A program made the translations under genes and the position numbers. Under the pieces are notes generated by a model, which was not told where the DNA came from, ran no database searches, and saw only the letters and a list, made by a program, of their open reading frames with translations. Shown in pieces: positions 10,490-31,893 of a stretch of 47,204 nucleotides of DNA. This stretch comes from Candidatus Woesearchaeota archaeon (lineage in GTDB: Archaea; Nanobdellota; Nanobdellia; Pacearchaeales; GW2011-AR1), in assembly GCA_964544395.1 (NCBI GenBank), contig CAZJAO010000004.1, positions 1-47,204 of the forward strand, written 5' to 3'. Within the stretch, counting starts at the first letter, position 1. Each line of letters opens with the position of its first letter.

Positions 10490-11032
10490 TTAAGTTCGTC
10501 CCGCATATAAGTCTTCTTTTCTTTTAGATAAATGTGTCTGAATATTCTTTAATATAGAATAAACATTAGAAATATTAAACATCACATCATATTTAGAACG
10601 AGTAGAATATGTTTGATTATTTGCAGTTCCTCCTGAAACCGTTTCTATCTCTCCAGTAAATATTCTTATATTCCCTGTTTTAAAAACTACCCCTAATATT
10701 CCTACACTTGCAGACACATTTTGTATTTGATCGTAATCCAAAGACTTAAAGTCCCTTCCTATAATCCCCTTCTGAAATACGATTCTTTTATTTGTGATTA
10801 CATAATAAATAACATTATACCTTAAAATAGTAATAATAATCAGAATAATCCATAATCCTCCGACCGCGATTAACCACAATCTTCCATATTGACTAAACCA
10901 AATAGCTAAAATAATCGCTCCTGCTATTAATGTTAGTGTAATAAAATTAGAAGCAAAATAAGCACTTGCTTTTGGTCTACCTTCCCATTCAACTTTCTCT
11001 TTCTGTTCTAAGATATTTGAAATTTCATTCAT
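10490..11032 (-). CDS. Membrane protein with bacterial PH (bPH_2-like) domain
   Basis: Two TM helices then YVITNKRIVFQKGIIGRDFKSLDYDQIQNVSASVGILG..FKTGNIRI. Confidence 0.75.
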   Translation of the reverse strand: MNEISNILEQKEKVEWEGRPKASAYFASNFITLTLIAGAIILAIWFSQYGRLWLIAVGGLWIILIIITILRYNVIYYVITNKRIVFQKGIIGRDFKSLDYDQIQNVSASVGILGVVFKTGNIRIFTGEIETVSGGTANNQTYSTRSKYDVMFNISNVYSILKNIQTHLSKRKEDLYAGRT

Positions 11033-11062: not shown

Positions 11063-11974
11063 TTATCCAGTCTTGAATTCCACAACATCCAAATCCTTCA
11101 GCTTATGCTTTAGTCCCACTTTTTGTCCCGGGAATTTGCTCGAAGGTCCCCAGATTTTTATCTCTTTTATCTTATTTGAAAATCCCCTCAAAACTTTTTT
11201 TGCAACCTCATTTACCGAGGCATCTGGAAAGAGGATCACAGGCTTATCTCTGTCCGTTTCTTTTCCGGGCTCTTTAGTATAAACTCTAATCTTGCCAAAG
11301 CTCTGAAAGATTTTGTTTTTTAATTCGTCAAGATTTTCTTTATTTTTAGAAGAAATTAAAACAAAATTATACCTCTTGCTTTGAAGAGTGGCTTTAGCCC
11401 TTCTTATTTCATTTTCGTTAAATGAATCAATTTTATTAAAAATAATAATTTGTTTTCCCCTCGCTTTATCAAGAATCTTTTTTATTTTATTTATCTCTTC
11501 TAAATTTGTAATCATAATCAGTATTAAATCCGCATTGTTCACTAGGCCTCGGTCATAATATTCCGATTCTATTGCAGGGATTTCTATTACCTGAATTTTC
11601 GTTCCATAATAATCCATAATCCCTACCATTGGTTTCTTAGTTGTGAAAGCGTAATCTCCAACTGCCGATTTAACATTTGTTAAGGTATTAAGAAGAGAAG
11701 ATTTACCTGAATTTGCAAATCCAATAATTACTAATTGCATGTCCTCTTTTTTTATTCCAACTCTACTCCCTCCTTTTTTTACTTTATCTTTTTCCTGCTT
11801 TTCCTTAAGTTTTATGAGCCTTTTTTTTAATTCTGCAACAAAGTTCTCACTTGATTTGTGCTTTGGGGCAGTTCTTATCATTTCTTCCAAACCGACTATT
11901 CTTTCTTCCAATGTCTGTGCTGCAAAATATTTCTTTTCGGCAGCAGCGTACTCTGGACCTGCATTGATTGGCAT
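11063..11974 (-). CDS. DRG/OBG-family GTPase with TGS domain (shortened)
   Basis: MPINA...PKHK N-terminus, G1 GFANSGKS, G2 YAFTT, G4 NKID, C-terminal TGS (IWGPSSKFPGQKVG...DLDVVEF). Confidence 0.85.
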   Translation of the reverse strand: MPINAGPEYAAAEKKYFAAQTLEERIVGLEEMIRTAPKHKSSENFVAELKKRLIKLKEKQEKDKVKKGGSRVGIKKEDMQLVIIGFANSGKSSLLNTLTNVKSAVGDYAFTTKKPMVGIMDYYGTKIQVIEIPAIESEYYDRGLVNNADLILIMITNLEEINKIKKILDKARGKQIIIFNKIDSFNENEIRRAKATLQSKRYNFVLISSKNKENLDELKNKIFQSFGKIRVYTKEPGKETDRDKPVILFPDASVNEVAKKVLRGFSNKIKEIKIWGPSSKFPGQKVGLKHKLKDLDVVEFKTG

Positions 11975-12024
11975 GGTATCTAGATACTCTTATAATTTTT
12001 AAACTTCATGAATCTTAAATTTTA

Positions 12025-12798
12025 ATGGAAAAAGTTGAAATAATTGAGAAAATTAAATGGAAAAAAGAATTTTCCCAGCTCCCTGAAAAAGATGTCCAGA
12101 GGGCATTTGAAAAATTTGATAATGACAACTATTCTGACGAAGAAAAAGTAAAATTTACAAGAGATTTGCTAAGAAAAGTCTTCTCTGGATTTTCAGGAAA
12201 AAAACTGCTGGGGTTAAAAAATAAATCTGCAGATGAAATATTGATGAAACATCTCTCTACCCGAGAAAGATATAATCATTATGGGAAAATTTATGAAAGA
12301 ATTCTTTCGGACATGCCCAAAAAATTAAGCATAATTGATTTGGGTGCGGGTGTTAATGGCTTAAGTTATGATTATCTTAATCAACTTGAGAAAAAAGTAG
12401 ATTATGTTGGAGTTGAAGCTATTGGACAAATTGTTCAGATTGTAAATGATTATTTTAGCCGAGAAAAAATTCCCGGAAAAATGTTTCATGCCAGCTTATT
12501 TGAAATGGATAAGATTAAAGAAATCATAAAAGAGGCAACCAAACCGAGGGTAATTTTCCTGTTTAAGGTTATTGACTCTTTGGAAAAATTTGAGAGAGAT
12601 TATACAAAAAAGTTATTGCCTGAAATTGCACCCCTTGCCGATAAAATTGTGATAAGTTTTGCTACGGAATCATGGATGAAAAGGACAAAATTTTATGCAA
12701 ATAGAAAATGGATCCTTGATTTTATCAAAGAAAATTGGCAAATTACAGATGATTTCGAATTTGGCGGAGAAAGATATATTGTTTTCAAGGGCAAATAA
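12025..12798 (+). CDS. SAM-dependent methyltransferase of the ArmA/Rmt/Sgm (FmrO) 16S rRNA m7G1405 family
   Basis: HLSTRER, IIDLGAGVNGLS, FLFKVIDSLE and IVISFATES follow the family motifs HxSTxERL, DxACGxNP, LLKxxxxLE, VVSFPTxS in order. Confidence 0.7.
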   Translation: MEKVEIIEKIKWKKEFSQLPEKDVQRAFEKFDNDNYSDEEKVKFTRDLLRKVFSGFSGKKLLGLKNKSADEILMKHLSTRERYNHYGKIYERILSDMPKKLSIIDLGAGVNGLSYDYLNQLEKKVDYVGVEAIGQIVQIVNDYFSREKIPGKMFHASLFEMDKIKEIIKEATKPRVIFLFKVIDSLEKFERDYTKKLLPEIAPLADKIVISFATESWMKRTKFYANRKWILDFIKENWQITDDFEFGGERYIVFKGK

Positions 12799-12830: not shown

Positions 12831-14030
12831 ATGAAATTTCAAAGAAAGATTTTGAAAAATGGAATGACTGTCTTATTTGAAAGAAGAGAAATTCCGGTTG
12901 TTAGTGTGGCTTTCGCTGTTAAAGCAGGCGGAGTAAATGAAGATCCTAAGGAGAAGGGAATATCTCATTTTATTGAGCATATGCTTTACAAAGGGACGCC
13001 AACAAGAAATTCCAAAAGAATTGCGGAAGAAATAGAAAATAATGGTGGTGAATTAAATGGTTTTACTTCAGAAGAAATTGTTGCTTATTGGTGCAAAATG
13101 CCCAGTCAGCATATTAAAATTGCCCTTGATGTCTTGAGCGACATGGTAAAGAATCCCCTCTTTGACCAAGAAGAATTTGACAAAGAAAGAAAAGTTATAT
13201 TTGAAGAAATTAAAATGTATCATGATAGTCCAAGAATGTACGTCATGGATGAAATTCAAAAAGCTCTTTATGATGGGACCATGAAAATAAACCTGGCGGG
13301 AACTTTTGATAGCATGAATTCAATAACAAGAGAAAAAATGACTGCAAAATTCAAGGAACTTTACAAATCCAATAATCTGATTTTATGTGTTGTCGGAGAT
13401 GCTAATTTTGATGAGATTGTCCAATTTGCTGAAAAGAATTTTGGTTCGGACAAGGGAAATATACCCCAAATGAAATTTAATTCTTTGAATGAAGTTAAAA
13501 TTGATGAAAGAGAGGGAGTAGACCAGGCAAATTTAGTTTTTGCATACCACGTCCCCGCAGCGGAGGATAAAAGAAGTTATGCTGCAATTGTCCTGAATTC
13601 CTTAATGGCTGATGGAATGTCTTCAAGACTTTTCAGCGAAATAAGGGAGAAAAGAAATCTGGCTTATGCTGTAAGGGGCGAGGCTAACATAAACAAAACT
13701 TTTGCATATAATTACATCTATGTCGGAACAATGAAGGATAATGTCGAAAAAATCAAGAAATTAATCCTGGATGAATTTGAAAAAGTATCGAAAAGTCTTG
13801 AAGATAAAGAGCTAAAAATAATCAAAAAGAAATTAATCGGAAACTATCAAATTTCTATGGAGGATTCTCAAGAACAAATGGTTAATCTTCTAAGCAGCGA
13901 AATTCACGGAAATGCGGAGGACTTTTACAAATTCGAAGAAAATATTTCCCAAGTTAAATTAGATGATGTAAAAGAACTTGCAAAAAAGGCTATGAAGAAT
14001 TTCAGTTTTTTTGCATTGGTTCCCAAATAA
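12831..14030 (+). CDS. M16-family zinc peptidase
   Basis: Inverted zinc motif HFIEH, NGFTS, EERKVIFEE, SSRLFSEIREKRNLAY. Confidence 0.92.
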   Translation: MKFQRKILKNGMTVLFERREIPVVSVAFAVKAGGVNEDPKEKGISHFIEHMLYKGTPTRNSKRIAEEIENNGGELNGFTSEEIVAYWCKMPSQHIKIALDVLSDMVKNPLFDQEEFDKERKVIFEEIKMYHDSPRMYVMDEIQKALYDGTMKINLAGTFDSMNSITREKMTAKFKELYKSNNLILCVVGDANFDEIVQFAEKNFGSDKGNIPQMKFNSLNEVKIDEREGVDQANLVFAYHVPAAEDKRSYAAIVLNSLMADGMSSRLFSEIREKRNLAYAVRGEANINKTFAYNYIYVGTMKDNVEKIKKLILDEFEKVSKSLEDKELKIIKKKLIGNYQISMEDSQEQMVNLLSSEIHGNAEDFYKFEENISQVKLDDVKELAKKAMKNFSFFALVPK

Positions 14031-14031
14031 A

Positions 14032-14838
14032 ATGTTTGTTGTTAAAGTTCCGGGAATCAATGGACTTGGAAAAACGAAAGGGTGTGAGAAAGCGGGAAAC
14101 GCAATACTGAAATCCCTCAATGAAATCTATTCCAATGAGGAAAATAAACCTATTAACACAAAACTATTGGACTTGGAAGAAATACATCTTGACAATTCAA
14201 ATCTTGAGATTACAAATAAATTAGTTTACAAAAATTCCTCTGAAATTTTTCAGGAAAAACCAAGAACGATTTTTATTGGTGGAGACCATTCTATAAGTTA
14301 TTCTCTTACAAAATCTTTTTTTGATTATTGCAAGAAAGAAAAGAAGAAGCCATTTCTACTTGTTTTTGATGCGCATCCAGATTGTATGGAACCTGCTCAT
14401 AAGGATTATCCTACTCATGAAGATTGGCTGAGAAGTTTAATTGAATCGGGGTTTCCGACAGAAAACATACTTCTCATTGGAGTCAGAAATTCTGACCAAA
14501 ATGAGATAACTTTTCTTAAAGAAAATAAGATTAAGATAATTTCAATGAATCAAATTCTTGATGATTTGCAGGGGGCAGGAGATTCTATCACGGAGTTCTC
14601 CCAGGGAAATGAATTATATGTTTCCTTAGACATTGATGTTATTGACCCTGCATTCGCACCCGGCACAGGATATACAGAACCCGCAGGTTTGACCTCCCGT
14701 GAATTTATTTATCTTGTTCAGAGGATAAACAGAATAAAAAATCTCAAGGCAGTTGATTTGGTGGAAATTAATCCGGATAAAGATATAGGAAATCTTACCG
14801 TAAAACTTGGAGCTAAAATATTAAGCGAATTAATCTAA
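14032..14838 (+). CDS. Arginase/agmatinase (ureohydrolase) family protein
   Basis: GGDHS, DAHPD, SLDIDVIDP, PGTG..EPAGL, DLVEINP; ATG at 14032. Confidence 0.9.
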   Translation: MFVVKVPGINGLGKTKGCEKAGNAILKSLNEIYSNEENKPINTKLLDLEEIHLDNSNLEITNKLVYKNSSEIFQEKPRTIFIGGDHSISYSLTKSFFDYCKKEKKKPFLLVFDAHPDCMEPAHKDYPTHEDWLRSLIESGFPTENILLIGVRNSDQNEITFLKENKIKIISMNQILDDLQGAGDSITEFSQGNELYVSLDIDVIDPAFAPGTGYTEPAGLTSREFIYLVQRINRIKNLKAVDLVEINPDKDIGNLTVKLGAKILSELI

Positions 14839-14994
14839 AGAATATAATCAAAAAAGAATCTCTAGTTTTATATGTCTTTTGCACTCCAAAAATCATTTCC
14901 AACTTCACTTTTGTTTAAAATGACTTTTTTCTAATTATACTTTAATGAACAAACAGGAAATTTGCCCAAAATACAAAACGGAAGGTTTTGTATA

Positions 14995-15294
14995 ATGGAC
15001 TTCACAGAGTTTTTACAAGAACAATATCTGAGACAATGTTCGTGGCGATGTAATCACGGGGGCTATACCCGACTTGAATCTGAGAAAGAGCAAATAAGAT
15101 CAAATTTAGTAAATAAATATGGGATTAACGGAAATAAGGAAGGAGTATTAAGGCAGGTTATGATTTGTGAGAAAACAGTCTTTAGTTTCTTAGAGGAATT
15201 ATCCGAAGACAAATTTAGGCATTATATGTGGATAGCAGATTTTCACAAAGAAGAATTAACTAGTAGGCTTAGTAATGCTCTTCGAGAAGTCTAA
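14995..15294 (+). CDS. Hypothetical helical protein
   Basis: ATG at 14995 (MDFTEFLQEQY...); no recognisable motif; 3' end overlaps the convergent xpf gene by 26 bp. Confidence 0.45.
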   Translation: MDFTEFLQEQYLRQCSWRCNHGGYTRLESEKEQIRSNLVNKYGINGNKEGVLRQVMICEKTVFSFLEELSEDKFRHYMWIADFHKEELTSRLSNALREV

Positions 15295-21960: not shown

Positions 21961-24249
21961 ATGCAATTTAAAGAGGGAGCTGCACTTTATTCTTACGAGA
22001 CCCAAAGAGAAGGGGGTGAAGATGTTCTATATGTAAATTACATGGGGGCTCCTTTTGTTCCAAGCATCGCTGATTCTCCTGAAGTTATGGAAAGAACTAT
22101 TGACGCTTTGATAGAAAATCCTAATGTTTCGAGAATTGTTTTTGTTCAGCAGAAAAATTACAATTATGATTTTCATGAAACATCGCTTCTTCTTGAAATT
22201 TCTCAATTATATGTTTACTTGATAAGGCAGGAAAGAATTTTATCAAAGGAAAAACTTGTGACTGGCTTTGACCAATTTTTTACTCAGAGATATAACGAGA
22301 TATTTTCTATTCTTTACTCTCTAAAGAGAGACCCCGTGGCTTCCTATCTTAATTTAAGAAATATTTTTGTTGAAGCGAGAATTTTTCTAGAGAAGCTTAG
22401 CCCCCAATATAAGTCAGACCAAAGCAATTACATAAGGTTGATTGAAAAAGTTTTTACCATGCTACAGGGCACGAAACTGATACAAGGACTCTTGAATTTT
22501 CTTCCAGATTATCAAAAAGGTGATAGAGAAATATATCATAGAATTTTTGAACCGGATGTAATTCCTAATTTTACTTTTACGCGACTTGTTTCTGAAATTC
22601 CGCAGGATGTGGAGATAGTTAATCAATATGAAATTTCAGGCGATGATTATGACAAATCGGTAGTTACTATATTGAGAAAAAGAAACGAATCAAAACTCCT
22701 TTATCATTTACTGCCCCCTGAGAATGTTCTTGATGAAGAACAGAATCTGCTTCTTAATCTTGCAAAGAATGTGCTTATCGAACATCAGCCAAAAGCGGAA
22801 GAATTTACAGATACCGAAAGAACAAGGCAAGTTTTCTTTAATATCGCAAAAGATTTACTTCAAGACTTAGCTCAGACAAAAGGCATAAATCTTAATTATT
22901 CTGATTTAAACAAATTATCCAAGATTCTAGTAAGACATACTATTGGGTTTGGGTTGATTGAGGTTTTATTGCAAGATAAAAATATTCAAGATATTGTTCT
23001 TAATGCGCCAATTCCAACAACTAGCATTTTCCTCAGACATGAAGTTTATGATGAATGTTATACAAATATTCTCCCTAGTCAGGAAGATGTAGACTCCTGG
23101 GCGGCAAAATTCAGAATAATTTCAGGGCGACCATTAGATGAAGCAAATCCTGTTCTTGATACTCAATTGGAAATTGACAAGATAAGTGCAAGAATTGCCA
23201 TTGTACAACAACCTCTTTCTCCCAATGGACTTGCTTATGCAATCAGAAGACATAGAGAAGAGCCATGGACCTTTTCATTATTTATTAAAAATAAGATGAT
23301 GAATCCCCTTTCTGCTGGATTAATGAGCTTTCTAGTTGATGGGGGAAGAACTATTTTAATTGCAGGAACTAGAAGTTCTGGAAAAACCTCTTTGCTTGGA
23401 GCTTTGATGCTTGAGATTTTACCTAGAACAAGAATAATTGTTGTTGAAGATACGCTTGAATTGCCTTTTGAATCTCTGAAGAAACTTAATTATGATATTC
23501 TGCAAATGAAAGTTCGTTCAGCATTGTTGAAAACCACCAATGAAATCTCTGCTGAAGATGGAATTAGAACAAGTCTGAGATTAGGGGACAGCAGTTTAAT
23601 TATTGGTGAAGTAAGAAGTGCTGAAGCAAAAGCTCTGTATGAAGCAATGAGAGTTGGTGCTTTGGCAAATACTGTAGCAGGAACAATTCACGGCGCTTCA
23701 CCATATGCTGTTTTCGACAGAGTTGTAAATGACTTAGAAGTTCCTGCAACTAGTTTCAAAGCGACAGATATTATTGCTGTTGCAAACCCCATTAAATCTC
23801 CTGATGGCCTTCATTCATGGAAGAGACTTTTGCAGATTACAGAGGTCAGGAAACACTGGCAGAAAGATCCTCTTGAAGAAAATGGTTTCAGCGATTTGGT
23901 AAAATACAATGTTGAAAAAGATACTCTTGAACCCAGCGAAGATTTGATTAATGGGGATAGCGAGGTTATCAAAGCTGTTGCAGAGAACGTTAGAGGGTGG
24001 GCAGGAAATTGGGATGCTGTTTATGATAATATTTTATTAAGAGCAAAAATAAAAGAAGAAATTGTAAAGACTGCAGAAAAAACCGGAAGACCTGAATTGC
24101 TGGAAGCAGCTTTTAATGTTTCTGCAAACCAAGAATTCCATTCAATTTCTGATACTGTCCGAGAAGAAATCGGTCTACCGCTTTCAAACAGAGTTTTTCC
24201 TGCTTGGCAGAAATGGCTTAATCAGGAAATAAAGAAAAAGAAATTATGA
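21961..24249 (+). CDS. Type IV pilus/secretion ATPase (VirB11/GspE/TadA-like), large form
   Basis: Walker A GTRSSGKT, Asp box VVEDTLEL, Walker B IIGEVRSAEA, His box GTIHG; long N-terminal extension. Confidence 0.92.
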   Translation: MQFKEGAALYSYETQREGGEDVLYVNYMGAPFVPSIADSPEVMERTIDALIENPNVSRIVFVQQKNYNYDFHETSLLLEISQLYVYLIRQERILSKEKLVTGFDQFFTQRYNEIFSILYSLKRDPVASYLNLRNIFVEARIFLEKLSPQYKSDQSNYIRLIEKVFTMLQGTKLIQGLLNFLPDYQKGDREIYHRIFEPDVIPNFTFTRLVSEIPQDVEIVNQYEISGDDYDKSVVTILRKRNESKLLYHLLPPENVLDEEQNLLLNLAKNVLIEHQPKAEEFTDTERTRQVFFNIAKDLLQDLAQTKGINLNYSDLNKLSKILVRHTIGFGLIEVLLQDKNIQDIVLNAPIPTTSIFLRHEVYDECYTNILPSQEDVDSWAAKFRIISGRPLDEANPVLDTQLEIDKISARIAIVQQPLSPNGLAYAIRRHREEPWTFSLFIKNKMMNPLSAGLMSFLVDGGRTILIAGTRSSGKTSLLGALMLEILPRTRIIVVEDTLELPFESLKKLNYDILQMKVRSALLKTTNEISAEDGIRTSLRLGDSSLIIGEVRSAEAKALYEAMRVGALANTVAGTIHGASPYAVFDRVVNDLEVPATSFKATDIIAVANPIKSPDGLHSWKRLLQITEVRKHWQKDPLEENGFSDLVKYNVEKDTLEPSEDLINGDSEVIKAVAENVRGWAGNWDAVYDNILLRAKIKEEIVKTAEKTGRPELLEAAFNVSANQEFHSISDTVREEIGLPLSNRVFPAWQKWLNQEIKKKKL

Positions 24250-24304
24250 TAATTTTTTAAAGTTGAATTATCTGTTAAAATTTAAGATAGAAGCATTCTA
24301 CAAA

Positions 24305-24838
24305 ATGAAAACAAAAAGTTGGGAAGAGCTTAACACTTCATATGCAAGAAAAGCAAAACCTCTTGAAGATGAAGCTTTACTTCTGAAGAGTAAACACTTG
24401 AAAGGATCTTCTTCAATAAACCCAGAGAGAATAGGCAAGATGTATGAAGATGCTGGAGATTTGCGAAGAAAAGCACATGATTTTATTGGAGCACAAGATG
24501 ATTACTTGGAAGCTAACAAATATGGTTATGCTTACAGTTCAGCAGACTCAGAGAGGGTTAGAAACAAGATAAATGGGCTAATCTCCGAGAAGAGACAAGC
24601 TCAAGGTTTACCCTTGAGAAGCTCGCTTGAGAAAAGAAGCTCCTTTGAGACTGTGCCTCAGAGATTATGGGCATATCTTTCAATCATCAGCCTTGCAGCA
24701 GCCTTGCTTTCAATTTCATTAAAATGGACTGGTTCGGTTGTAGGTCCTGCAGCTACAAACAACAAATGGATTGGACTTTGTTTATTTTTAGTGGGATGCA
24801 TGTTTACATTCTTCTACTTTAGAACAAAGAGGAAGTGA
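24305..24838 (+). CDS. Hypothetical protein with helical N-domain and C-terminal two-TM hairpin
   Basis: ATG at 24305; SLEKR...LSIISLAAALLSISLKWTGSVVG...WIGLCLFLVG. Confidence 0.65.
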   Translation: MKTKSWEELNTSYARKAKPLEDEALLLKSKHLKGSSSINPERIGKMYEDAGDLRRKAHDFIGAQDDYLEANKYGYAYSSADSERVRNKINGLISEKRQAQGLPLRSSLEKRSSFETVPQRLWAYLSIISLAAALLSISLKWTGSVVGPAATNNKWIGLCLFLVGCMFTFFYFRTKRK

Positions 24839-24886
24839 AAGTTTTATTAATTAATAAACTCTTTTTATAAAAAAGAGAAAATTAAT

Positions 24887-27073
24887 ATGCCTCCTTATCA
24901 ACAGCCCCCAATTCCGCCAGATGTTAATGAAATTCTAAAGAAATACGGCAACAAAATCGAAAGTCAGATTAATACTACTACGGTTCAGAATAATAGTGGA
25001 TACAGCCAAGCCTATTCCACGTTCAAAGAAGAAATGGCTCCTGCATGGGTACGATATGAAAAGTTGTGTCATAGCATCGGTAATATACTCAAGTTAAAAA
25101 TTTCTCAGAAAGATGAATTAAAAGTTAAGAGAAATATTGAAATTGCTCATCTTGACATTGAACCATGGCAGGCCGTGACTTTAAGCGCAGTAACTTTTTT
25201 CTTTGTTTTTATAATTGGACTTTTTATCACGGTTTCTGTTTATGTTTTCACCGGAAACGTGCCGGTTCTCTTTTTTATCATGCTAGTTGTTTCATCCCTG
25301 TTTTTGTATAATTATATCAGCGGCTTTCCAGAGAGATTTGCTAATCAGTGGAGATTGAAAGCATCTTCGCAAATGGTGCCCGCAATTTTGTATTTAGTAG
25401 TCTACATGAGACATACCTCTAATCTTGAAAGAGCCATTTCCTTTGCATCTGAACATCTGCAATATCCCCTTGCATTAGATTTCAAAAAAATATTTTATGA
25501 TGTTGAAATTGGAAAGTTCTCAACAATTAAGGACAGTCTCGATTATTACCTTGATGGCTGGAGAGATTATTCTCCGGAATTTATAGAATCATTTCACTTA
25601 ATTGAAAGCAGTTTGTTTGAACCAGATGACACGACCAGAGTTACAACTCTTGAAAAAGCATTGCAAGTAATTTTAGATGGTGTTTATGACAAGATGCTGA
25701 AATTTGTTCATGATGTCCGAAGTCCCATTCAAAGCACCTACATGCTCGGAACAACTTTGCCTGTTTTGGGAATGGCATTGCTCCCTCTTGCATCCTTGAT
25801 GGTTGGGAATTTGCTTAATGCGACCGACGTTTTTATTTTATACGATTTGATTATTCCTTTTCTTGCATTTTTCCTGATGAATAAATATTTACTATTAAGA
25901 CCGGGCGGTTATGGAGATACAAGCTTGCTTGAAAGAAATCCCCTTTATGGTGAATACAAAAGCAAGAAACCATATTACAAAGCGTTTCTCATATGCCTTC
26001 CTCTTTTCATCCTTGGATTTTTGCCTTTGATATGGGGTTTCACGCCTTTGCCGCAACTTTTAGGATTGCCATTAGATCCGACTTTTGCGCAATTAGGTTT
26101 GGGCATTTTTGGAAATAATGGTTTCTTTGGCTTTATTCCTTCAACAAGCGGTATAAAAGGACCCTTTGGTGCTGGAGCTTTGATACTTAGTTTATTTGTT
26201 CCGTTGGGACTTGCTTTATTCTTTTCAATGGCATACAAAGAGAAAACAAAAAATCTTATCAAGGAAAGAGACAATACAAAAGAACTTGAAGCAGAATTTA
26301 ATAATTCCTTATTCCAACTTGGAAACCGAATCGGCAACGGAACTCCTCCAGAATTAGTTTTTGGGAGAGTTGCAGAATCTACGACTGGATTGAAGACCTC
26401 TGATTTTTTCAAGAAAGTTAATTATAATATTCAGCAAGGTGGAATGAGTGTTGAGAATGCTATTTTTGATCCAACACGCGGAGCAATAAATTCTTACCCC
26501 TCAGACCTGATAGCTACAAGCATGAGAATACTTGTAGAAGCAGCAAAGAAAGGATTGAAAATTGCTGCAATTAGCATTATGAGCATTTCTGAATACGTGA
26601 AGAATATTCAAAAGATAGGAGATAGGCTGAGAGATTTGCTTGCAGAGATAATTTCAGATATGAAAAGCAACATGACTTTCCTTGCACCCCTTCTTGCAGG
26701 AGTTGTTGTCGGACTTGCAGCTATGATAACTACAATATTAACGAAATTGAATTTGGCTACTGCCGCAGGAGGAAGCGCCGCTGCTACAGGACTTGGAAAT
26801 ATTGGAGACATACTCTCCTTATTTGATTTGACAAATATGATTCCCCCTTATTATTTGCAAATCGCAATTGGAGTTTATCTCGTGGAGATTATATTTATCC
26901 TTACCGGAACTCTGGTAACAATTGAGTCTGGAGTAGATAAACTTGAGAAAGCTAATACTACGGGCAAGAATCTCAAGAGAGGAATCACTCTTTATTTTGT
27001 AGTTGCATTAATTTCTACTCTAGCATTGTTCCTTTTATCGTCACTTGTACTTGGCGGCCTGGGAACAAGCTAA
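24887..27073 (+). CDS. Pilus platform protein (TadB/TadC/ArlJ-like, two T2SSF-type domains)
   Basis: ILYLVVYMRHTSNLERAI and FQLGNRIGNGTPPELVF cytoplasmic domains, each followed by TM clusters; downstream of the ATPase. Confidence 0.85.
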   Translation: MPPYQQPPIPPDVNEILKKYGNKIESQINTTTVQNNSGYSQAYSTFKEEMAPAWVRYEKLCHSIGNILKLKISQKDELKVKRNIEIAHLDIEPWQAVTLSAVTFFFVFIIGLFITVSVYVFTGNVPVLFFIMLVVSSLFLYNYISGFPERFANQWRLKASSQMVPAILYLVVYMRHTSNLERAISFASEHLQYPLALDFKKIFYDVEIGKFSTIKDSLDYYLDGWRDYSPEFIESFHLIESSLFEPDDTTRVTTLEKALQVILDGVYDKMLKFVHDVRSPIQSTYMLGTTLPVLGMALLPLASLMVGNLLNATDVFILYDLIIPFLAFFLMNKYLLLRPGGYGDTSLLERNPLYGEYKSKKPYYKAFLICLPLFILGFLPLIWGFTPLPQLLGLPLDPTFAQLGLGIFGNNGFFGFIPSTSGIKGPFGAGALILSLFVPLGLALFFSMAYKEKTKNLIKERDNTKELEAEFNNSLFQLGNRIGNGTPPELVFGRVAESTTGLKTSDFFKKVNYNIQQGGMSVENAIFDPTRGAINSYPSDLIATSMRILVEAAKKGLKIAAISIMSISEYVKNIQKIGDRLRDLLAEIISDMKSNMTFLAPLLAGVVVGLAAMITTILTKLNLATAAGGSAAATGLGNIGDILSLFDLTNMIPPYYLQIAIGVYLVEIIFILTGTLVTIESGVDKLEKANTTGKNLKRGITLYFVVALISTLALFLLSSLVLGGLGTS

Positions 27074-27131
27074 TAGAACTACTCCCGCATACTCGGAAAA
27101 CATTTATTAATAAAACTCTTTTTATTTTAAA

Positions 27132-27281
27132 ATGAATAATAAGAGAGGAATCATCTCAGAATATCTTCCATGGCTCCTTATTGGAATTGCTATCCTTGTC
27201 ATTCTCATGATAACAATCTTTATTATAAAGGGACAAGGCTTTTCTTTGATAGATAAAATTAAAGGGATTTTCGGAGGATAA
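27132..27281 (+). CDS. 49-aa pilin-like peptide with class III signal (not in ORF track)
   Basis: MNNKRG|IISEYLPWLLIGIAILVILMITIFIIKGQGFSLIDKIKGIFGG*. Confidence 0.75.
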   Translation: MNNKRGIISEYLPWLLIGIAILVILMITIFIIKGQGFSLIDKIKGIFGG

Positions 27282-27449
27282 ATGTCTGAGCTTACAATTT
27301 CGGAACTAATAAAAATTATTCTTGGTGTAATTGTAGTTGTTGCAGTTATTCTTGCCTTGTATTTCTTTTTCAGAAATCAGGTAATAAGTTTCTTTAGCGG
27401 ATTTGGAGGAAATGCGTCTAAAATAATCCTATCTTTAATTGGAAAATGA
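27282..27449 (+). CDS. 55-aa pilin-like peptide without a basic leader (not in ORF track)
   Basis: MSELTISELIKIILGVIVVVAVILALYFFFRNQVISFFSGFGGNASKIILSLIGK*; abuts the upstream stop and overlaps the next start (ATGA). Confidence 0.7.
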   Translation: MSELTISELIKIILGVIVVVAVILALYFFFRNQVISFFSGFGGNASKIILSLIGK

Positions 27450-27976
27450 ACAAACGCAGAACCGGAGGTTCCGCACTTCCATTGATAAAAAATAAACGCG
27501 GATTTTTGTTGGGTGAAGAAACAGTAAAAATTATTATTGCAATAATAGCAATTCTTTTTCTTATTTTATTCATCGTTTATTTATACAATAACTTTACACA
27601 AAATAAAGATTTGACAAATGCAAAAAGTTCTCTTACTGATTTAATCAGCCAAATAAATTCAGGGGCAACTCAAGCTAACATTTACAATCCTAGCGGGTGG
27701 CTTTTATCTTCTTTTACTTCTTCCCCCGTGATGCCAAAAATGTGCACTACGAATAAGTGGATAAATTGTATCTGCTTATGCATAAAACCAGCTGGCTCGG
27801 TTCATCAGCCGCAGACAGCTTGTGACACTTCTGGGATCTGCCAGCAATCTGACTTCTCTCTGGTTGGAGATGCGACATTTATAGTAACCTGGCAAACAAA
27901 TAGCATAGAAATTTCAAATCCTCCTTTGCTTCTTTCAATCAATCAACAAACTAAAACTATTTCGAAAAGCACCTGA
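27446..27976 (+). CDS. Pilin-like protein with class III signal, 6 Cys
   Basis: KNKRG|FLLGEETVKIIIAIIAILFLILFIVYL. Confidence 0.8.
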   Translation: MNKRRTGGSALPLIKNKRGFLLGEETVKIIIAIIAILFLILFIVYLYNNFTQNKDLTNAKSSLTDLISQINSGATQANIYNPSGWLLSSFTSSPVMPKMCTTNKWINCICLCIKPAGSVHQPQTACDTSGICQQSDFSLVGDATFIVTWQTNSIEISNPPLLLSINQQTKTISKST

Positions 27977-28077
27977 TGGATTTTGAAACTTTGATAAAAT
28001 ATTTAATCTGGGTGGTATTTTTTGTTATTGTATTCGCAGGATTATATTTTATGTTTAGAAAATTTGGGTTAATCTAA
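27976..28077 (+). CDS. 33-aa single-TM peptide (not in ORF track)
   Basis: MDFETLIKYLIWVVFFVIVFAGLYFMFRKFGLI*; start and stop both overlap neighbours (TGATG, TAATG). Confidence 0.65.
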   Translation: MDFETLIKYLIWVVFFVIVFAGLYFMFRKFGLI

Positions 28078-28835
28078 TGAACAAAAAAGGAGAGATGACT
28101 ACCGAGCAAATTGTAATGATAATAGTTTTAATTGTAAGTTTTATTGTAATCTTATATTTTCTTCTCAGGTTGAATCTTGGCGGAACGACTAATGATGAAA
28201 TCTGCCACAATTCGGTTGTGCTTAAATCAAAAAGTGCAGGACTTGTTGGGGGATTAACCTGCAAAACTGATTATATTTGCATTTCAGGCGGAGGAACCTG
28301 TGCAAATCTTAATCCCACAACCACTGTAAATGTTGATGCTACAAACAAAGATGAAATAATGAAAGCCATAGCAGACCAAATGTCTAATTGCTGGTTCACA
28401 TTTGGTGAAGGAAATGCAAATTATCTTGGATTGGCAGAAAAATCTGTGCTTACAAAAACTACCTGCGCTTTATGTTCAACGATTGAATTTGATGACAAAA
28501 TCTTAAGCAAAAATTATGGCATAACTTATAGTGATTTTTATAATTATTTAATGAACACACACAAGGATAGCAGTCAAACGTACCTGAATTATCTTTTCGG
28601 TGTTAGTGATGTAAGTTCACTTGAAGCAAAAAATGGGGTCACAAATAAAGTAGTAAGCAGTACTCTTAATAATAATCTTATAACAAATACACAATATGGA
28701 ATTTTAACTGGATTTATTCAAGGATTTGCCGGAGGCTTACTTGGAAATACCTATCAAATTTATCCTACTTATTTACCGATTAATCAGGTGTCTTCACAGT
28801 TGCAATGTGCTGATTTTGTTACGACAGCATCTTAA
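28077..28835 (+). CDS. Pilin-like protein with class III signal, 8 Cys
   Basis: MNKKG|EMTTEQIVMIIVLIVSFIVILYFL. Confidence 0.82.
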   Translation: MNKKGEMTTEQIVMIIVLIVSFIVILYFLLRLNLGGTTNDEICHNSVVLKSKSAGLVGGLTCKTDYICISGGGTCANLNPTTTVNVDATNKDEIMKAIADQMSNCWFTFGEGNANYLGLAEKSVLTKTTCALCSTIEFDDKILSKNYGITYSDFYNYLMNTHKDSSQTYLNYLFGVSDVSSLEAKNGVTNKVVSSTLNNNLITNTQYGILTGFIQGFAGGLLGNTYQIYPTYLPINQVSSQLQCADFVTTAS

Positions 28836-28866
28836 CATTTATTAATCTCTATAATATTCTTTTTTC

Positions 28867-29274
28867 ATGATGAATAAGAGGGGCATCACATTACTTCTAG
28901 AAAATATTATTTTCATAATTCTCAATCTCATTTTTATTGCAATTCTAATCTTTTTTTTAATTTCGAAATCCGGAAGTGCAGGAGTTCTTGAAGAAAAGTA
29001 TGCAAAAGAAATCGCTCTCGTTCTTGATTCTGCCAAACCGGGGATGATGATTAACCTAAATATGGCAGATGCAATATCCACTGCTGAACAAAACCTCGGA
29101 AAAAATAATGTGAATGACAGCATTGTAACTATTTCCCAAAATGTTGTAACTGTAAAGCTAAGCGAACAGGGGGGGTATTCCTATTCTTTCTTTAATGACA
29201 TAAAGATTTCAAATCATTATCTCGATAAAACCGGCAATCAATATCTGTTCTTTATAGGTGATTACAATGGTTAG
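28867..29274 (+). CDS. Pilin-like protein with class III signal
   Basis: MMNKRG|ITLLLENIIFIILNLIFIAILIFFL. Confidence 0.8.
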   Translation: MMNKRGITLLLENIIFIILNLIFIAILIFFLISKSGSAGVLEEKYAKEIALVLDSAKPGMMINLNMADAISTAEQNLGKNNVNDSIVTISQNVVTVKLSEQGGYSYSFFNDIKISNHYLDKTGNQYLFFIGDYNG

Positions 29275-30460
29275 AACCAATCCCTTATCCAAAAAGAAAG
29301 GTGCAGACCAAATACTTACTGTTTATTGGTTTGTAATAATCTTCATCGTGGCTGGTGCGGTGGTTTATATGGCGTATCTATTTTATGGTTCTCCTTTTGA
29401 TGCGCGAAATATTGAAGGCAGTCTTTTGGGCAATCAAATTGCAAATTGCTTGACAAATAAAGGATATATTATTGACCAAGCTTTCTTACCTGACTTTCAA
29501 AATAATTTTCTTCAGGATTGCCATTTGAATTTCAGTACGGAAGATTTTTCGGACTGGAAAACTAATACCCAATATTATGCTCAAGTGGTGGTTTACAAAT
29601 TTAATTCTAATGCACAGCAGCAATCTTATGGTGAGTCGGATAGTTCTATTTCGAGCAATATTGGCAATCAAGTGTTAACTGTGTCTGCGGGAAACATAAA
29701 TTTGAAGACTGCCTGGGAACTTATAACTCCCTCAACTGGATTTTTGGGCCTGAATTTGAATAAAAGAAATGTTAACACTATTGTAATTCATGATACTGAA
29801 GGGCCAACGGCTCTTGGGGCAATCCAAGCAATATCGACTGCAGATTTGAGCATACATTATATTATTGATAGAGATGGAACGATTATTTCTCCAGATAATG
29901 TTAATCAGTTTGCTCCTGCACAATATGCTAATGCACTTGTTCCAGAAAGTACTATTGCACAAGATGCTGGATGTTACGACACACGATCAAAAACTCAATG
30001 GCCTATTTGTTCTGCAACCTGTACTGACTCAAATGGTCTAATTGCGACAAGCTGCCAAAAGTTGAGCAATCCGCCTCCGAATGAATTTTGCTGTTTGGAA
30101 TTTAATGTAAAATCCATCGGAATAGAACTAGTTAATTTAGGGAATGAGCCTTACCCTGATACGCAAATAAAATCTCTTATAAATCTGGTTTCAGACATTT
30201 CCTCAAGGTATAATATTCCTTTAGACCGGGCACACATCGTCGGACATTATCAGACTTCAAGTTACAAGGTTGACCCGGGAACACAATTTCCTTGGGACAC
30301 TTTCATACAAGAATTAACATCAAGGGGGGCGGTAGCTATCGCTTCTTCAACTGCAAATACGGAGCAGCAGCAAAGAAACATTTATGCCCTTGATAAGAGT
30401 GGAAATCAATATGTTATCCAAATTTTAACTCTCGTAGGCAAAACTGAAAAAAATGTTTAA
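29267..30460 (+). CDS. Pilin-like protein (class III signal) with an inserted N-acetylmuramoyl-L-alanine amidase (Amidase_2/AmpD-like) domain
   Basis: SKKKG|ADQILTVYWFVIIFIVAG signal; amidase motifs TIVIHDT, SIHYIIDRDG, NVKSIGIE, YPDTQIKSL..L, IVGH, KVDPG.QFPW; ATG at 29267. Confidence 0.85.
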   Translation: MVRTNPLSKKKGADQILTVYWFVIIFIVAGAVVYMAYLFYGSPFDARNIEGSLLGNQIANCLTNKGYIIDQAFLPDFQNNFLQDCHLNFSTEDFSDWKTNTQYYAQVVVYKFNSNAQQQSYGESDSSISSNIGNQVLTVSAGNINLKTAWELITPSTGFLGLNLNKRNVNTIVIHDTEGPTALGAIQAISTADLSIHYIIDRDGTIISPDNVNQFAPAQYANALVPESTIAQDAGCYDTRSKTQWPICSATCTDSNGLIATSCQKLSNPPPNEFCCLEFNVKSIGIELVNLGNEPYPDTQIKSLINLVSDISSRYNIPLDRAHIVGHYQTSSYKVDPGTQFPWDTFIQELTSRGAVAIASSTANTEQQQRNIYALDKSGNQYVIQILTLVGKTEKNV

Positions 30461-31255: not shown

Positions 31256-31289
31256 AAAGTTTTATAAACAAATTAAACTTAATCAAAGA

Positions 31290-31742: not shown

Positions 31743-31755
31743 ACATAATTCTAAA

Positions 31756-31866: not shown

Positions 31867-31893
31867 TTTAAACAAATAACTGCTGATTCTTTT

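What the first reader, a model, noticed from the sequence alone, without database searches (positions are those of the whole stretch)
12025..12798. ArmA/Rmt-like aminoglycoside-resistance methyltransferase homologue in a DPANN archaeon
Seen: the ordered motifs HLSTRER, DLGAGVNGLS, FLFKVIDSLE and IVISFATES. Established: ArmA/RmtB/Sgm/FmrO enzymes methylate 16S G1405 (N7) and confer high-level aminoglycoside resistance; they are known from producers and clinical bacteria. Inference: either a housekeeping rRNA modification in this lineage (a possible ancestral reservoir) or protection against antibiotics from bacterial neighbours, which fits a bacteria-associated lifestyle.
Basis: partly seen in the sequence, partly recalled or inferred. 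Interest (0 to 1): 0.62.

Follow-up and report, generated by a model that had tools for sequence, protein, structure and literature searches.

The report
Core Rmt-like rRNA methyltransferase of Nanoarchaeota
This gene is a distant but genuine relative of the bacterial enzymes that methylate ribosomal RNA and so block aminoglycoside antibiotics, but here it is an ordinary, vertically inherited core gene of a whole lineage of tiny archaea, first noticed in Nanoarchaeum in 2010 and apparently not yet tested.

Summary
Window 12025-12798 (+) is a 257-aa ORF carrying all four motifs in order. It is a full-length homologue of the Arm/Rmt/FmrO 16S rRNA m7G1405 methyltransferases: Pfam FmrO 29.7 bits (cut-off 27); hhalign against RmtC/RmtB/ArmA/RmtF 99.4%, E 3e-21; the 16 best Foldseek PDB hits are all m7G1405 enzymes. 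It is not a typical resistance gene. It scores 77 bits against NCBIfam's 250-bit Rmt cut-off and is about 20% identical to the clinical enzymes. It lies in a chromosomal neighbourhood conserved in about 70 of 80 related genomes, and its dN/dS (~0.04) equals that of its neighbours. Relatives occur in at least 255 species-level genomes; every named source was Nanoarchaeota, Pacearchaeota or Woesearchaeota, apart from a few unclassified archaeal MAGs. A second subfamily is fused operon-like to Pelota. The residues that position G1405 (RmtC Y60, K204) and most SAM-binding residues are conserved. Some 30S-docking residues and the motif III Asp are not. Best reading: a housekeeping rRNA methyltransferase, probably making m7G at the G1405 equivalent. 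The family's presence in Nanoarchaeota was already published (NEQ545, 2010; "signature gene", 2013). Its activity is untested, and this organism's 16S could not be inspected.

The parts
12025..12798 (+). CDS of the FmrO/Arm-family methyltransferase homologue (257 aa plus stop), Pacearchaeota-type subfamily
   Evidence: ORF. Pfam FmrO passes the gathering score. NCBIfam Rmt model E 1e-21, below its cut-off. hhalign 99.4% against the clinical Rmt enzymes. AF2 pLDDT 86.5. Foldseek top 16 hits are all m7G1405 methyltransferases.
12025..12234 (+). N-terminal helical domain (residues ~1-70), the counterpart of the Rmt N1/N2 30S-docking domain. It holds K14, E15, F16, R46, R50 and F56. The N2 part is shorter than in RmtC.
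   Evidence: AF2 helices 3-11, 21-29, 38-56 and 69-75. hhalign covers this region and shows an insertion of about 20 residues in RmtC only. Residue map: RmtC R50->R46 (32/32), Y60->F56 (32/32), H54->R50 (29/32 R, 3/32 H), K20->E15, Y21->F16.
12235..12795 (+). C-terminal class I (Rossmann) SAM-dependent methyltransferase domain (residues ~71-257)
   Evidence: Alternating strand/helix pattern from residue 100 on. HMMER alignments to RmtC 100-279, Sgm 106-247 and ArmA 17-191.
12250..12270 (+). Motif HLSTRER (aa 76-82). H76, S78 and R82 correspond to RmtC H105, S107 and R111 (= Sgm R108), which contact the carboxypropyl part of SAM.
   Evidence: Invariant in 32/32 archaeal sequences, in 62-64 of 64 Woese-type sequences and in all 4 reference enzymes. 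Roles taken from PMC2896518 and PMC10054953.
12337..12366 (+). Motif I, DLGAGVNGLS (aa 105-114), the glycine-rich SAM-binding loop. D105 and G107 correspond to RmtC D134 and G136.
   Evidence: D105, G107, G109, N111 and G112 are invariant. Mapping.
12415..12417 (+). E131, the motif II acidic residue that binds the SAM ribose (RmtC D160, Sgm D156). A conservative D->E change.
   Evidence: E in 30/32 and D in 2/32 archaeal sequences.
12493..12495 (+). S157 at the motif III position, where Sgm (D182), RmtC (D188), RmtB and RmtF have Asp. This is a deviation specific to the subfamily.
   Evidence: S in 31/32 Pace-type sequences but D in 53/64 Woese-type sequences. Sgm D182A abolishes SAM binding (PMC2896518).
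12556..12585 (+). Motif FLFKVIDSLE (aa 178-187). K181 corresponds to RmtC K204, the universally conserved lysine that turns toward N7 of the flipped G1405. D184 replaces RmtC T207, which is P in RmtB, ArmA and RmtF.
   Evidence: K181, D184 and E187 are invariant. K is found in all 100 aligned sequences. Role from PMC10054953.
12646..12693 (+). IVISFATES plus the following loop (aa 208-223), the counterpart of RmtC SFPIK236 and Loop237-246, which distorts h44. R220 corresponds to R241 and F223 to M245. E215 takes the place of K236.
   Evidence: R220 is R in 29/32 and K in 3/32. F223 is F in 32/32. Position 215 is E in 19, R in 8, K in 3 and Q in 2.
11975..12024 (.). 50-bp divergent intergenic region shared with the DRG-like GTPase gene. 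A TATA-like element, TTATAATTTTTAAA, lies at 11990-12003, i.e. -35 to -22 from the ATG.
   Evidence: Sequence. In 76 orthologous loci, TATA-like hexamers peak sharply with starts at -29 to -27 from the ATG. 52 of 76 loci have one starting between -38 and -24, against 9 of 76 in the control interval -68 to -54. The promoter function and the leaderless transcript are inferences.
11063..11974 (-). Conserved divergent neighbour: a DRG/Obg-type ribosome-binding GTPase with a TGS domain
   Evidence: Pfam MMR_HSR1, MMR_HSR1_Xtn and TGS. Found on the opposite strand directly upstream in 70 of 80 loci and in L090 and L091.
12831..14030 (+). Conserved downstream neighbour, an M16 (insulinase-type) peptidase, 32 bp after the methyltransferase stop codon and probably co-transcribed
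   Evidence: Pfam. Same position and strand in 71 of 80 loci. Gap measured.
14011..14838 (+). Arginase/agmatinase-family gene overlapping the end of the M16 gene, part of the same conserved block
   Evidence: Pfam Arginase. Present downstream in 47 of 80 loci and in L090 and L091.

Best explanation
The gene encodes a housekeeping, SAM-dependent small-subunit rRNA methyltransferase of the Arm/Rmt/FmrO family. It is inherited vertically as a core gene of the Nanoarchaeota (Pacearchaeota-type subfamily). By analogy with RmtC, the helical N-terminal domain would dock on the assembled 30S subunit at the surface formed by h24, h27, h44 and h45. The loop after the SFAT(E/R/K)S motif (R220, F223) would distort helix 44 and flip out the G1405-equivalent guanine. 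That base would stack on F56 and be methylated at N7 with help from K181. Shown here: homology, fold, conservation of these residues, phylum-wide distribution, synteny and purifying selection. Inferred: the substrate, the N7-G1405 target and the constitutive role. Resistance to 4,6-disubstituted deoxystreptamine aminoglycosides would then be a by-product rather than the selected function.
For: The protein has full-length homology to m7G1405 enzymes. The AF2 model (pLDDT 86.5, pTM 0.86) has RmtC, Sgm, RmtB, RmtF and ArmA as its 16 best PDB matches (E 1e-14 to 7e-9, TM 0.6-0.8), and all other methyltransferase families reach TM 0.53 at most. The two residues said to position G1405 in the RmtC-30S structure are kept: Y60->F56 (32/32; RmtF also has F, and Y60F is tolerated in RmtC) and K204->K181 (100/100 aligned sequences). 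Also kept are R50->R46, S107->S78, R111->R82, D134->D105, G136->G107, D160->E131, R241->R220 and M245->F223. On distribution, there are 801 clusters at E<=1e-3 whose named members are Nanoarchaeota or Pacearchaeota. There are 255 species-representative genomes with a relative, and all 80 listed are Nanoarchaeota, Pacearchaeota, Woesearchaeota or unclassified 'archaeon' MAGs. The Woesearchaeota-type subfamily adds at least 1383 clusters (hhalign A1 vs A2 E 3e-54). The gene order aaRS, DRG GTPase (divergent), methyltransferase, M16 peptidase, arginase-family gene, ERCC4 nuclease is kept in about 70 of 80 loci and over 20 kb in L090. In the Woese-type subfamily the gene overlaps the 3' end of Pelota in 4 of 4 distinct loci, with PheRS nearby in the two loci that extend that far. 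dN/dS is 0.04-0.05, the same as DRG, M16 and arginase. The gene's G+C is 31% against 34.5% for the window. The clinical rmtB, by contrast, lies between blaTEM-1 and IS26 on a plasmid, and the other reference genes are plasmid-borne too. Literature: NEQ545 of N. equitans was described as a diverged Arm-family orthologue (PMC2896518), and the gene is one of 15 Nanoarchaeota signature genes (PMC3655853).
Against: No activity, substrate or modification has been measured for any archaeal member. The score against NCBIfam's Rmt equivalog model is 77 bits against a cut-off of 250. Several residues that are functionally critical in RmtC differ. K20 becomes E15, a charge reversal, although K14 next to it is nearly invariant. 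Y21 becomes F16, and Y21F strongly lowers MICs in RmtC. H54, which is essential in RmtC, becomes R50. K236 becomes E215 in 19 of 32 sequences. The motif III Asp, whose Ala mutant abolishes SAM binding in Sgm, is Ser in 31 of 32 members of this subfamily. This organism's 16S rRNA could not be inspected, because neither the window nor any fetched locus holds a 16S gene. No RNA-seq run holding the gene was found. To my knowledge (not checked here) m7G has not been reported in archaeal SSU rRNA.
Confidence: 0.6

Rival explanations
1. Same family and fold but a shifted target. The Pacearchaeota-type enzyme would methylate a different nucleotide of the SSU rRNA, or another RNA, because its docking and h44-distorting residues have diverged from the G1405 enzymes.
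For: K20->E15, H54->R50, T/P207->D184 (invariant Asp) and K236->E215 all lie on the RNA-contacting surface. The N2 subdomain is shorter than in RmtC. The NCBIfam equivalog cut-off is missed by a wide margin. Husain et al. said it was unclear whether NEQ545 has the same function as orthodox Arm enzymes.
Against: The residues that contact the flipped G1405 itself (F56, K181) and the loop residues R220 and F223 are invariant or nearly so. The archaeal-specific substitutions E15, R50 and D184 are shared by both archaeal subfamilies, as would be expected from adaptation to an archaeal 30S surface. The closest structures are only m7G1405 enzymes.
Confidence: 0.2
2. A dedicated antibiotic defence. 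The gene would be kept because Nanoarchaeota live among, or attached to, organisms that make 4,6-disubstituted deoxystreptamine aminoglycosides, and methylation protects their ribosomes.
For: Every characterised member of the family confers aminoglycoside resistance. The window comes from rhizosphere metagenomes, and soils typically hold actinomycete aminoglycoside producers (my own knowledge). The window also encodes an N-acetylmuramoyl-L-alanine amidase, which hints at interaction with bacteria.
Against: The gene is conserved with fixed synteny across the lineage, in samples from soil, groundwater and marine sources (sample and isolate names), and it is reported in the hydrothermal N. equitans and the hot-spring Nst1. 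It is not accessory or mobile, and its selection strength equals that of core genes. Its genomic partners are translation genes (DRG GTPase, Pelota, aminoacyl-tRNA synthetases), not resistance or efflux genes.
Confidence: 0.1
3. A catalytically dead relative. Loss of the motif III Asp would have abolished SAM binding, and the protein would persist as a 30S-binding assembly or quality-control factor.
For: S157 replaces the Asp whose Ala mutant abolishes SAM binding in Sgm. The neighbours are ribosome-associated factors.
Against: All other cofactor-binding residues (S78, R82, D105, G107, G109, E131) and the catalytic-site residue K181 are invariant or nearly so across 32 sequences that average 57% column identity. 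That pattern is not expected once catalysis has been lost. Ser can still hydrogen-bond the adenine, and some Woese-type members also have N or S at this position.
Confidence: 0.05
4. A recent horizontal acquisition from bacteria, or bacterial contamination of the assembly.
For: The family was first known only from bacteria.
Against: The gene is embedded between archaeal genes on a contig, and its exact protein is seen on 11 contigs. The locus is held, in whole or in part, by 20 listed metagenome runs. The synteny is kept in about 70 of 80 archaeal loci. Its G+C is close to the window's. It is only about 20% identical to the clinical enzymes.
Confidence: 0.01

Closest known systems
NEQ545 of Nanoarchaeum equitans and its Nst1 orthologue (Husain et al. 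2010, PMC2896518; Podar et al. 2013, PMC3655853)
   Same: It is an Arm/FmrO-family homologue in a Nanoarchaeota genome. Its C-terminal catalytic motifs are conserved, its N-terminal helical domain is diverged and one helix shorter, and its function is untested. It is regarded as a lineage signature gene.
   Different: I could not obtain the NEQ545 sequence, so direct orthology with the window protein was not tested. The window protein belongs to a Pacearchaeota-type subfamily from mesophilic habitats (rhizosphere for this window). The breadth shown here (at least 255 species genomes, two deep subfamilies, fixed synteny) goes beyond the two genomes in those papers.
Acquired 16S rRNA m7G1405 methyltransferases RmtC, RmtB, ArmA and RmtF (PDB 6pqb, 8ghu, 3frh, 3fzg, 6pi9)
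   Same: They share the two-domain fold (TM 0.6-0.8). They also share the SAM-contacting S, R, D and G residues, the aromatic residue and lysine that position G1405, and the Arg and hydrophobic residue of the h44-distorting loop.
   Different: Identity is about 20%. The protein scores 77 bits against NCBIfam's 250-bit cut-off. K20, Y21, H54, K236 and the motif III Asp are not conserved. The gene is chromosomal, syntenic and core, whereas the reference genes are plasmid-borne and rmtB is flanked by IS26.
Intrinsic producer enzymes Sgm, KgmB, GrmA and FmrO (the actinomycete Kgm/Arm subfamily; PDB 3lcu, 3lcv)
   Same: Sgm is the best single-sequence PDB hit (E 1.8e-6). The enzymes are chromosomal and intrinsic rather than acquired. 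Sgm's E212 and R216 align with the conserved E187 and R191 (my reading of the alignment printed).
   Different: In producers the gene belongs to an antibiotic biosynthesis and self-resistance context, and no such cluster is present here. Sgm D182 corresponds to S157.
Woesearchaeota-type subfamily (alignment A2, e.g. P0196, P0275, P0312)
   Same: It is the same family (hhalign E 3e-54, 30% identity). It shares the archaeal-specific E15, R50 and D184, and its named sources are Nanoarchaeota, Woesearchaeota or unclassified archaeal MAGs (one is labelled 'Euryarchaeota archaeon SM23-78').
   Different: Its members are about 280 aa long. They keep the motif III Asp and mostly K at the K236 position, and they score higher against the Rmt model (about 147 bits). 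Their conserved context is different: the gene overlaps Pelota (4 of 4 loci), is followed by a TrmB-type regulator gene (3 of 4) and PheRS (2 of 4).
Other SSU rRNA methyltransferases: NpmA and KamB (m1A1408), RsmG (m7G527), Bud23 (m7G1575)
   Same: All are class I SAM-dependent methyltransferases acting on SSU rRNA. NpmA docks on the same 30S surface (PMC10054953).
   Different: None of them appeared among the leading sequence or structure matches. According to PMC2896518 the m7G methyltransferase families use non-homologous guanine-binding sites.

Membership tests
Arm/Kgm/FmrO family (Pfam PF07091) | Score at or above the Pfam gathering threshold | tested here: met
   29.7 bits against a cut-off of 27, E 5.7e-7. 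PF07091 is also precomputed for nearly all relatives.
Arm/Kgm/FmrO family | Two-domain architecture: a helical N-terminal N1/N2 domain followed by a C-terminal class I methyltransferase domain, with full-length homology | tested here: met
   AF2 model. Foldseek top 16 hits are all family members with 260-288 aligned columns. hhalign covers 246 columns at 99.4%. The N2 part is shorter than in RmtC.
Arm/Kgm/FmrO family | Residues that position the flipped G1405: an aromatic residue at RmtC Tyr60 and a Lys at RmtC Lys204 | tested here: met
   F56 in 32/32 and K181 in 32/32 archaeal sequences, and in all Woese-type and reference sequences. Roles from PMC10054953.
Arm/Kgm/FmrO family | SAM-binding residues: Sgm R108, G135 (motif I), D156 (motif II) and D182 (motif III) | tested here: inconclusive
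   R82 and the motif I glycines (G107, G109) are invariant. D156 becomes E131, a conservative change. D182 becomes S157 in 31 of 32 sequences, so it is not conserved in this subfamily, although Asp is kept in 53 of 64 Woese-type sequences.
Arm/Kgm/FmrO family | N1 residues needed for 30S docking and h45/h44 rearrangement: RmtC Lys20, Tyr21, Arg50 and His54 | tested here: inconclusive
   R50->R46 is invariant. K20->E15, Y21->F16 and H54->R50 (H in 3 of 32) are changed. The changes are shared by both archaeal subfamilies, so they may reflect an archaeal 30S surface.
Arm/Kgm/FmrO family | Residues of the h44-distorting loop: RmtC Lys236, Arg241 and Met245 | tested here: inconclusive
   R241->R220 (29 R, 3 K). 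M245->F223 (32/32, hydrophobic). K236->E215 (E 19, R 8, K 3, Q 2).
Rmt family 16S rRNA (guanine(1405)-N(7))-methyltransferase, NCBIfam NF000466 (equivalog) | Score at or above the curated equivalog cut-off (250 bits) | tested here: not met
   77.2 bits for the window protein and about 147 bits for the Woese-type P0196. The protein should therefore not be named as an Rmt equivalog by sequence alone.
m7G1405 methyltransferases (functional class) | Methylates N7 of G1405 in the assembled 30S subunit | not testable with these tools
   This needs biochemistry or rRNA modification mapping. No report for any archaeal member was found in the searchable literature.
m7G1405 methyltransferases (functional class) | The target G1405 and its helix 44 context are present in the organism's own 16S rRNA | not testable with these tools
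   There is no rRNA gene in the window and no 16S decoding-site motif in the window or the 80 loci fetched by then. That G1405 is universally conserved is my own knowledge only.
Acquired aminoglycoside-resistance 16S-RMTases (ArmA, RmtA-H) | An accessory gene carried on plasmids, transposons or IS elements, with patchy distribution | tested here: not met
   The chromosomal synteny is conserved in about 70 of 80 loci. No transposase or integrase domain was found in the window's ORFs of at least 100 aa that were scanned. By contrast the four reference genes are on plasmids, and rmtB lies next to IS26 and blaTEM-1.
Acquired aminoglycoside-resistance 16S-RMTases (ArmA, RmtA-H) | Confers high-level resistance to 4,6-disubstituted deoxystreptamine aminoglycosides | not tested
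   This requires expression and MIC measurement.

The most novel reading that the evidence does not exclude
Ribosomes of the whole phylum Nanoarchaeota would constitutively carry m7G at the G1405 equivalent of helix 44. It would then be the first lineage in which this clinically notorious resistance mark is a native housekeeping modification, and, to my knowledge, the first m7G in an archaeal SSU rRNA. The archaeal clade is as deeply split as all known bacterial Arm enzymes (Pace-type vs Woese-type about 29% identity). That would make an ancient archaeal origin, or a very old inter-domain transfer, of the Arm family testable.
Probability: 0.5. Interest if true: 0.6.

Novelty: new member of a known kind. 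Interest (0 to 1): 0.4.

Why it matters
The m7G1405 methyltransferases are among the most damaging aminoglycoside-resistance determinants, and their evolutionary origin and any native physiological role remain unclear. If one archaeal phylum keeps a relative as a core, translation-linked gene, then the modification can serve ribosome function rather than drug defence. That phylum would be a natural system for asking what m7G1405 does to decoding. It would also be a deep outgroup for working out where the resistance family came from. A practical consequence follows for resistome surveys. Those that count FmrO/Rmt-like hits in metagenomes will pick up these abundant archaeal housekeeping genes, some of which JGI already auto-names "16S rRNA (guanine(1405)-N(7))-methyltransferase", and they should not be scored as mobile resistance.

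Tried and rejected
- The genome-collection scan with the single protein found no relative.
- I looked for a 16S gene to inspect helix 44 and found none in the window or in the window plus the 80 loci fetched by then.
- No RNA-seq run holding the gene could be listed, so there is no expression evidence.
- The supplement of PMC2896518, which holds the alignment with NEQ545, is not held as text.
- Cluster look-ups returned almost no names for the library representatives. Their identity came instead from gene context (Pelota) and from a second word-indexed search.
- The literature searches 'FmrO + archaea' and 'Woesearchaeota + rRNA methyltransferase' found nothing. A CPR methyltransferase preprint does not deal with this family. 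Papers on the origin of 16S-RMTases were all clinical.
- Three runs of my upstream-region script returned only the window, because tblastn's low-complexity filter cut the N-terminus. This was fixed.
- Recent HGT or contamination was rejected on synteny, G+C and divergence.
- I rejected the idea that this is simply a generic class I methyltransferase, because its N-terminal domain is homologous to the Rmt N-terminal domain and only Rmt-family structures match over the full length.
- I did not build a rooted phylogeny. With only four bacterial reference sequences in hand it would have said nothing about the direction of transfer, and I chose not to spend the last large database search on it.
Full report
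**Observation.** Window 12025-12798 (+) is an ATG-initiated ORF of 257 codons ending in TAA. The gene's G+C (31%) is close to that of the window (34.5%) (profile). The window is archaeal. It encodes Orc1/Cdc6, PolD small and large subunits, RadA, aIF2-alpha, a GAN/RecJ-like DHH protein, SRP54 and a RIO-type kinase. It has no rRNA gene and two tRNA genes.

**Homology.** Pfam FmrO (PF07091) is the only family above its gathering score: 29.7 bits against 27, E 5.7e-7. NCBIfam's generic Rmt model aligns over the whole protein (residues 6-252 against model positions 3-251 of 254, E 1.2e-21), but at 77 bits it is far below the 250-bit equivalog cut-off. The best sequence hits in the PDB are Sgm, RmtC and ArmA. 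A profile of 32 archaeal family members (A1), compared with a profile of RmtC, RmtB, ArmA and RmtF (A3), gives hhalign probability 99.4% and E 3.1e-21 over 246 columns. That span includes the N-terminal domain.

**Structure.** An AlphaFold2 model built on A1 is confident (mean pLDDT 86.5, pTM 0.86). Its 16 best Foldseek matches in the PDB are all m7G1405 methyltransferases: RmtC, Sgm, RmtB, RmtF and ArmA, including the 30S-bound RmtC (E 1e-14 to 7e-9, TM 0.6-0.8). The next families reach TM 0.53 at most.

**Distribution.** The word-indexed search found 801 clusters at E<=1e-3. The best 120 are 54-91% identical and about 256 aa long, and every name attached is a Nanoarchaeota, Nanoarchaeia or Pacearchaeota MAG. 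A pattern scan of one genome per GTDB species found 255 genomes with a relative. All 80 listed are Nanoarchaeota, Pacearchaeota, Woesearchaeota or unclassified archaeon MAGs. An exhaustive profile search of 1.84 billion representatives gave 1134 hits at E<=1e-3.

The lower-scoring proteins of about 280 aa form one cluster, 29% identical to the window protein and 25% to the clinical enzymes. A search with their alignment (A2) found at least 1383 clusters. Their names are Woesearchaeota, Nanoarchaeota or unclassified archaeon MAGs, with one labelled 'Euryarchaeota archaeon SM23-78'. JGI already auto-names several of them '16S rRNA (guanine(1405)-N(7))-methyltransferase'. A1 against A2 gives E 3e-54. 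In the mid-scoring group, the one representative with an organism name is also Nanoarchaeia. The family therefore pervades one archaeal phylum in at least two deep subfamilies, which I call Pace-type (this window) and Woese-type.

**Context.** In the window the gene is transcribed divergently from a DRG/Obg-type ribosome-binding GTPase with a TGS domain. It is followed 32 bp later by an M16 peptidase gene and then an overlapping arginase-family gene. A class I aminoacyl-tRNA synthetase (Trp/Tyr family) lies upstream and an ERCC4 nuclease downstream. tblastn of these neighbours against the 80 loci shows the same order and strands: the GTPase in 70 loci, M16 in 71, the aaRS in 56, the arginase-family gene in 47 and ERCC4 in 45. 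Many loci are cut short by contig ends. In the two closest relatives, collinearity holds over the whole fetched span, 20 kb in L090 and 5.8 kb in L091.

The Woese-type gene has a different, equally conserved setting. In 4 of 4 distinct loci it overlaps the 3' end of Pelota; a TrmB-type regulator gene follows in 3 of them and PheRS alpha and beta in 2. No transposase or integrase domain was found in the window's ORFs of at least 100 aa that were scanned. By contrast the reference rmtC, rmtB, armA and rmtF genes lie on plasmids, and rmtB sits between blaTEM-1 and IS26.

Nei-Gojobori dN/dS between the window and L090 or L091 is 0.04-0.05. That is indistinguishable from the GTPase, M16 and arginase genes, although dS is near saturation, so the ratios are approximate.

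The 50-bp intergenic region carries TTATAATTTTTAAA at -35 to -22 from the ATG. Across 76 orthologous loci, TATA-like hexamers peak sharply with starts at -29 to -27. A TATA-like hexamer starts between -38 and -24 in 52 of 76 loci, against 9 of 76 in a control interval. This fits an archaeal promoter and a leaderless or near-leaderless mRNA, which is an inference.

**Residue-level test.** I used the critical residues defined by the RmtC-30S cryo-EM and mutagenesis study (PMC10054953) and by the Sgm study (PMC2896518). I mapped them on a MAFFT alignment of 32 Pace-type, 64 Woese-type and 4 reference sequences.

| Status in the Pace-type subfamily | RmtC (or Sgm) residue | Archaeal residue |
|---|---|---|
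| Conserved | S107 | S78 |
| Conserved | R111 (Sgm R108) | R82 |
| Conserved | D134 | D105 |
| Conserved | G136 | G107 |
| Conserved (conservative change) | D160 | E131 |
| Conserved | Y60 | F56 (32/32) |
| Conserved | K204 | K181 (all 100 sequences) |
| Conserved | R50 | R46 (32/32) |
| Conserved | R241 | R220 |
| Conserved (hydrophobic) | M245 | F223 (32/32) |
| Not conserved | K20 | E15 |
| Not conserved | Y21 | F16 |
| Not conserved | H54 | R50 (H in 3/32) |
| Not conserved | T207 | D184 (invariant) |
| Not conserved | K236 | E215 (E 19, R 8, K 3, Q 2) |
| Not conserved (variable also among the reference enzymes) | R211 | variable |

E15, R50 and D184 are shared by both archaeal subfamilies. 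They look like lineage-wide adaptations, plausibly to the archaeal 30S surface, rather than decay.

One deviation is specific to the Pace-type. The motif III Asp (Sgm D182, RmtC D188) is Ser157 in 31 of 32 sequences, whereas 53 of 64 Woese-type sequences keep Asp. Sgm D182A abolishes SAM binding, so this is real evidence against fully canonical cofactor binding. However, Ser can still hydrogen-bond the adenine, and the strict conservation of every other cofactor and catalytic residue argues against a dead enzyme.

**Mechanism proposed.** This part is inferred by analogy with RmtC.
- The helical N-terminal domain docks on the mature small subunit.
- The loop after SFAT(E/R/K)S, with R220 and F223, pries open helix 44.
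- The G1405-equivalent base flips out, stacks on F56 and receives a methyl group at N7 next to K181.

Because the gene is core, syntenic with translation genes and under housekeeping-level constraint, the modification is most likely constitutive. Aminoglycoside insensitivity would then be a side effect.

The rivals are as follows:
- A shifted target (0.2).
- Genuine antibiotic defence (0.1), which is unparsimonious for a gene kept from hydrothermal N. equitans to rhizosphere.
- A catalytically dead 30S-binding factor (0.05).
- Recent HGT or contamination (about 0.01).

**Comparison with the literature.** Husain et al. 2010 reported NEQ545 of N. equitans as 'the first archaeal ortholog' of the Arm family. 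They described perfectly conserved C-terminal motifs, a diverged N-terminal domain one helix shorter, and unclear function. Podar et al. 2013 listed the homologue as one of 15 Nanoarchaeota signature genes. I found no paper in the searchable library that tests the activity or covers the Woese or Pace archaeal clades. The finding is thus a new member of a known kind. The new elements here are the breadth of the family, its two subfamilies, the fixed translation-linked contexts and the residue map.

**Not resolved.**
- This organism's 16S helix 44 could not be inspected.
- No transcript evidence was found.
- It is not known whether the Pace and Woese types ever co-occur in one genome.
- The direction of the ancient inter-domain transfer is unresolved.

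**Verdict.** Interest is moderate (0.4). The locus is ordinary for its lineage and already noted in the literature. It does point to a cheap, decisive experiment, mapping m7G in Nanoarchaeota 16S rRNA, that bears on the origin and native role of an important resistance mechanism.

Noticed in passing
window 29258-30460 (+), within 21961-32739: A 400-aa protein with an N-acetylmuramoyl-L-alanine amidase domain (Amidase_2, E 1.5e-21), i.e. a peptidoglycan hydrolase, is encoded in an archaeon. It sits among ORFs with no Pfam match, between a type II/IV secretion ATPase (21961-24249) and an A24 prepilin peptidase (31894-32739). This may relate to interaction with bacterial cell walls.
   Followed up: no
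window 41839-41968 (+): Rfam calls a tRNA spanning 130 nt (53.4 bits, full model) that ARAGORN does not report. This is most simply an archaeal intron-containing tRNA.
   Followed up: no
window 10490-11032 (-): A 180-aa membrane protein with a bacterial PH domain (bPH_2) lies between the aaRS and the DRG-like GTPase genes. It has no tblastn match in any of the 80 related loci, and in the closest relatives L090 and L091 the aaRS and GTPase genes directly abut. It is a lineage-specific insertion into an otherwise fixed gene order.
   Followed up: partly
window 14838-15269; L090 12823-13356: The closest relatives carry a LigT/2'-5' RNA ligase-family gene between the arginase-family gene and ERCC4. 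The window has no detectable LigT there by tblastn, only an unannotated 110-aa TTG ORF (14962-15294).
   Followed up: partly
L085 2088-3970; L087 2964-4870; L088 2967-4822; L089 3009-4846: In the Woesearchaeota-type subfamily the FmrO-like gene overlaps the 3' end of the Pelota (ribosome rescue) gene by 13-25 nt in all four distinct loci examined. This suggests translational coupling of an rRNA methyltransferase with a ribosome-rescue factor.
   Followed up: partly
window 11975-12024 and the equivalent region of 76 loci: The very short divergent intergenic region (about 33-50 bp) holds two conserved AT-rich boxes. One starts at about -28 and the other at about -12 from the methyltransferase ATG. 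The second is at TATA distance from the opposite GTPase start codon in many loci, which suggests interleaved divergent promoters for two leaderless genes.
   Followed up: partly
window 24887-27073 (+) and neighbouring ORFs at 24263-24838 and 27446-29274: A 728-aa ORF and several flanking ORFs have no Pfam match at E<=1e-4. They sit next to pilus or secretion components and may be lineage-specific surface or attachment proteins.
   Followed up: no
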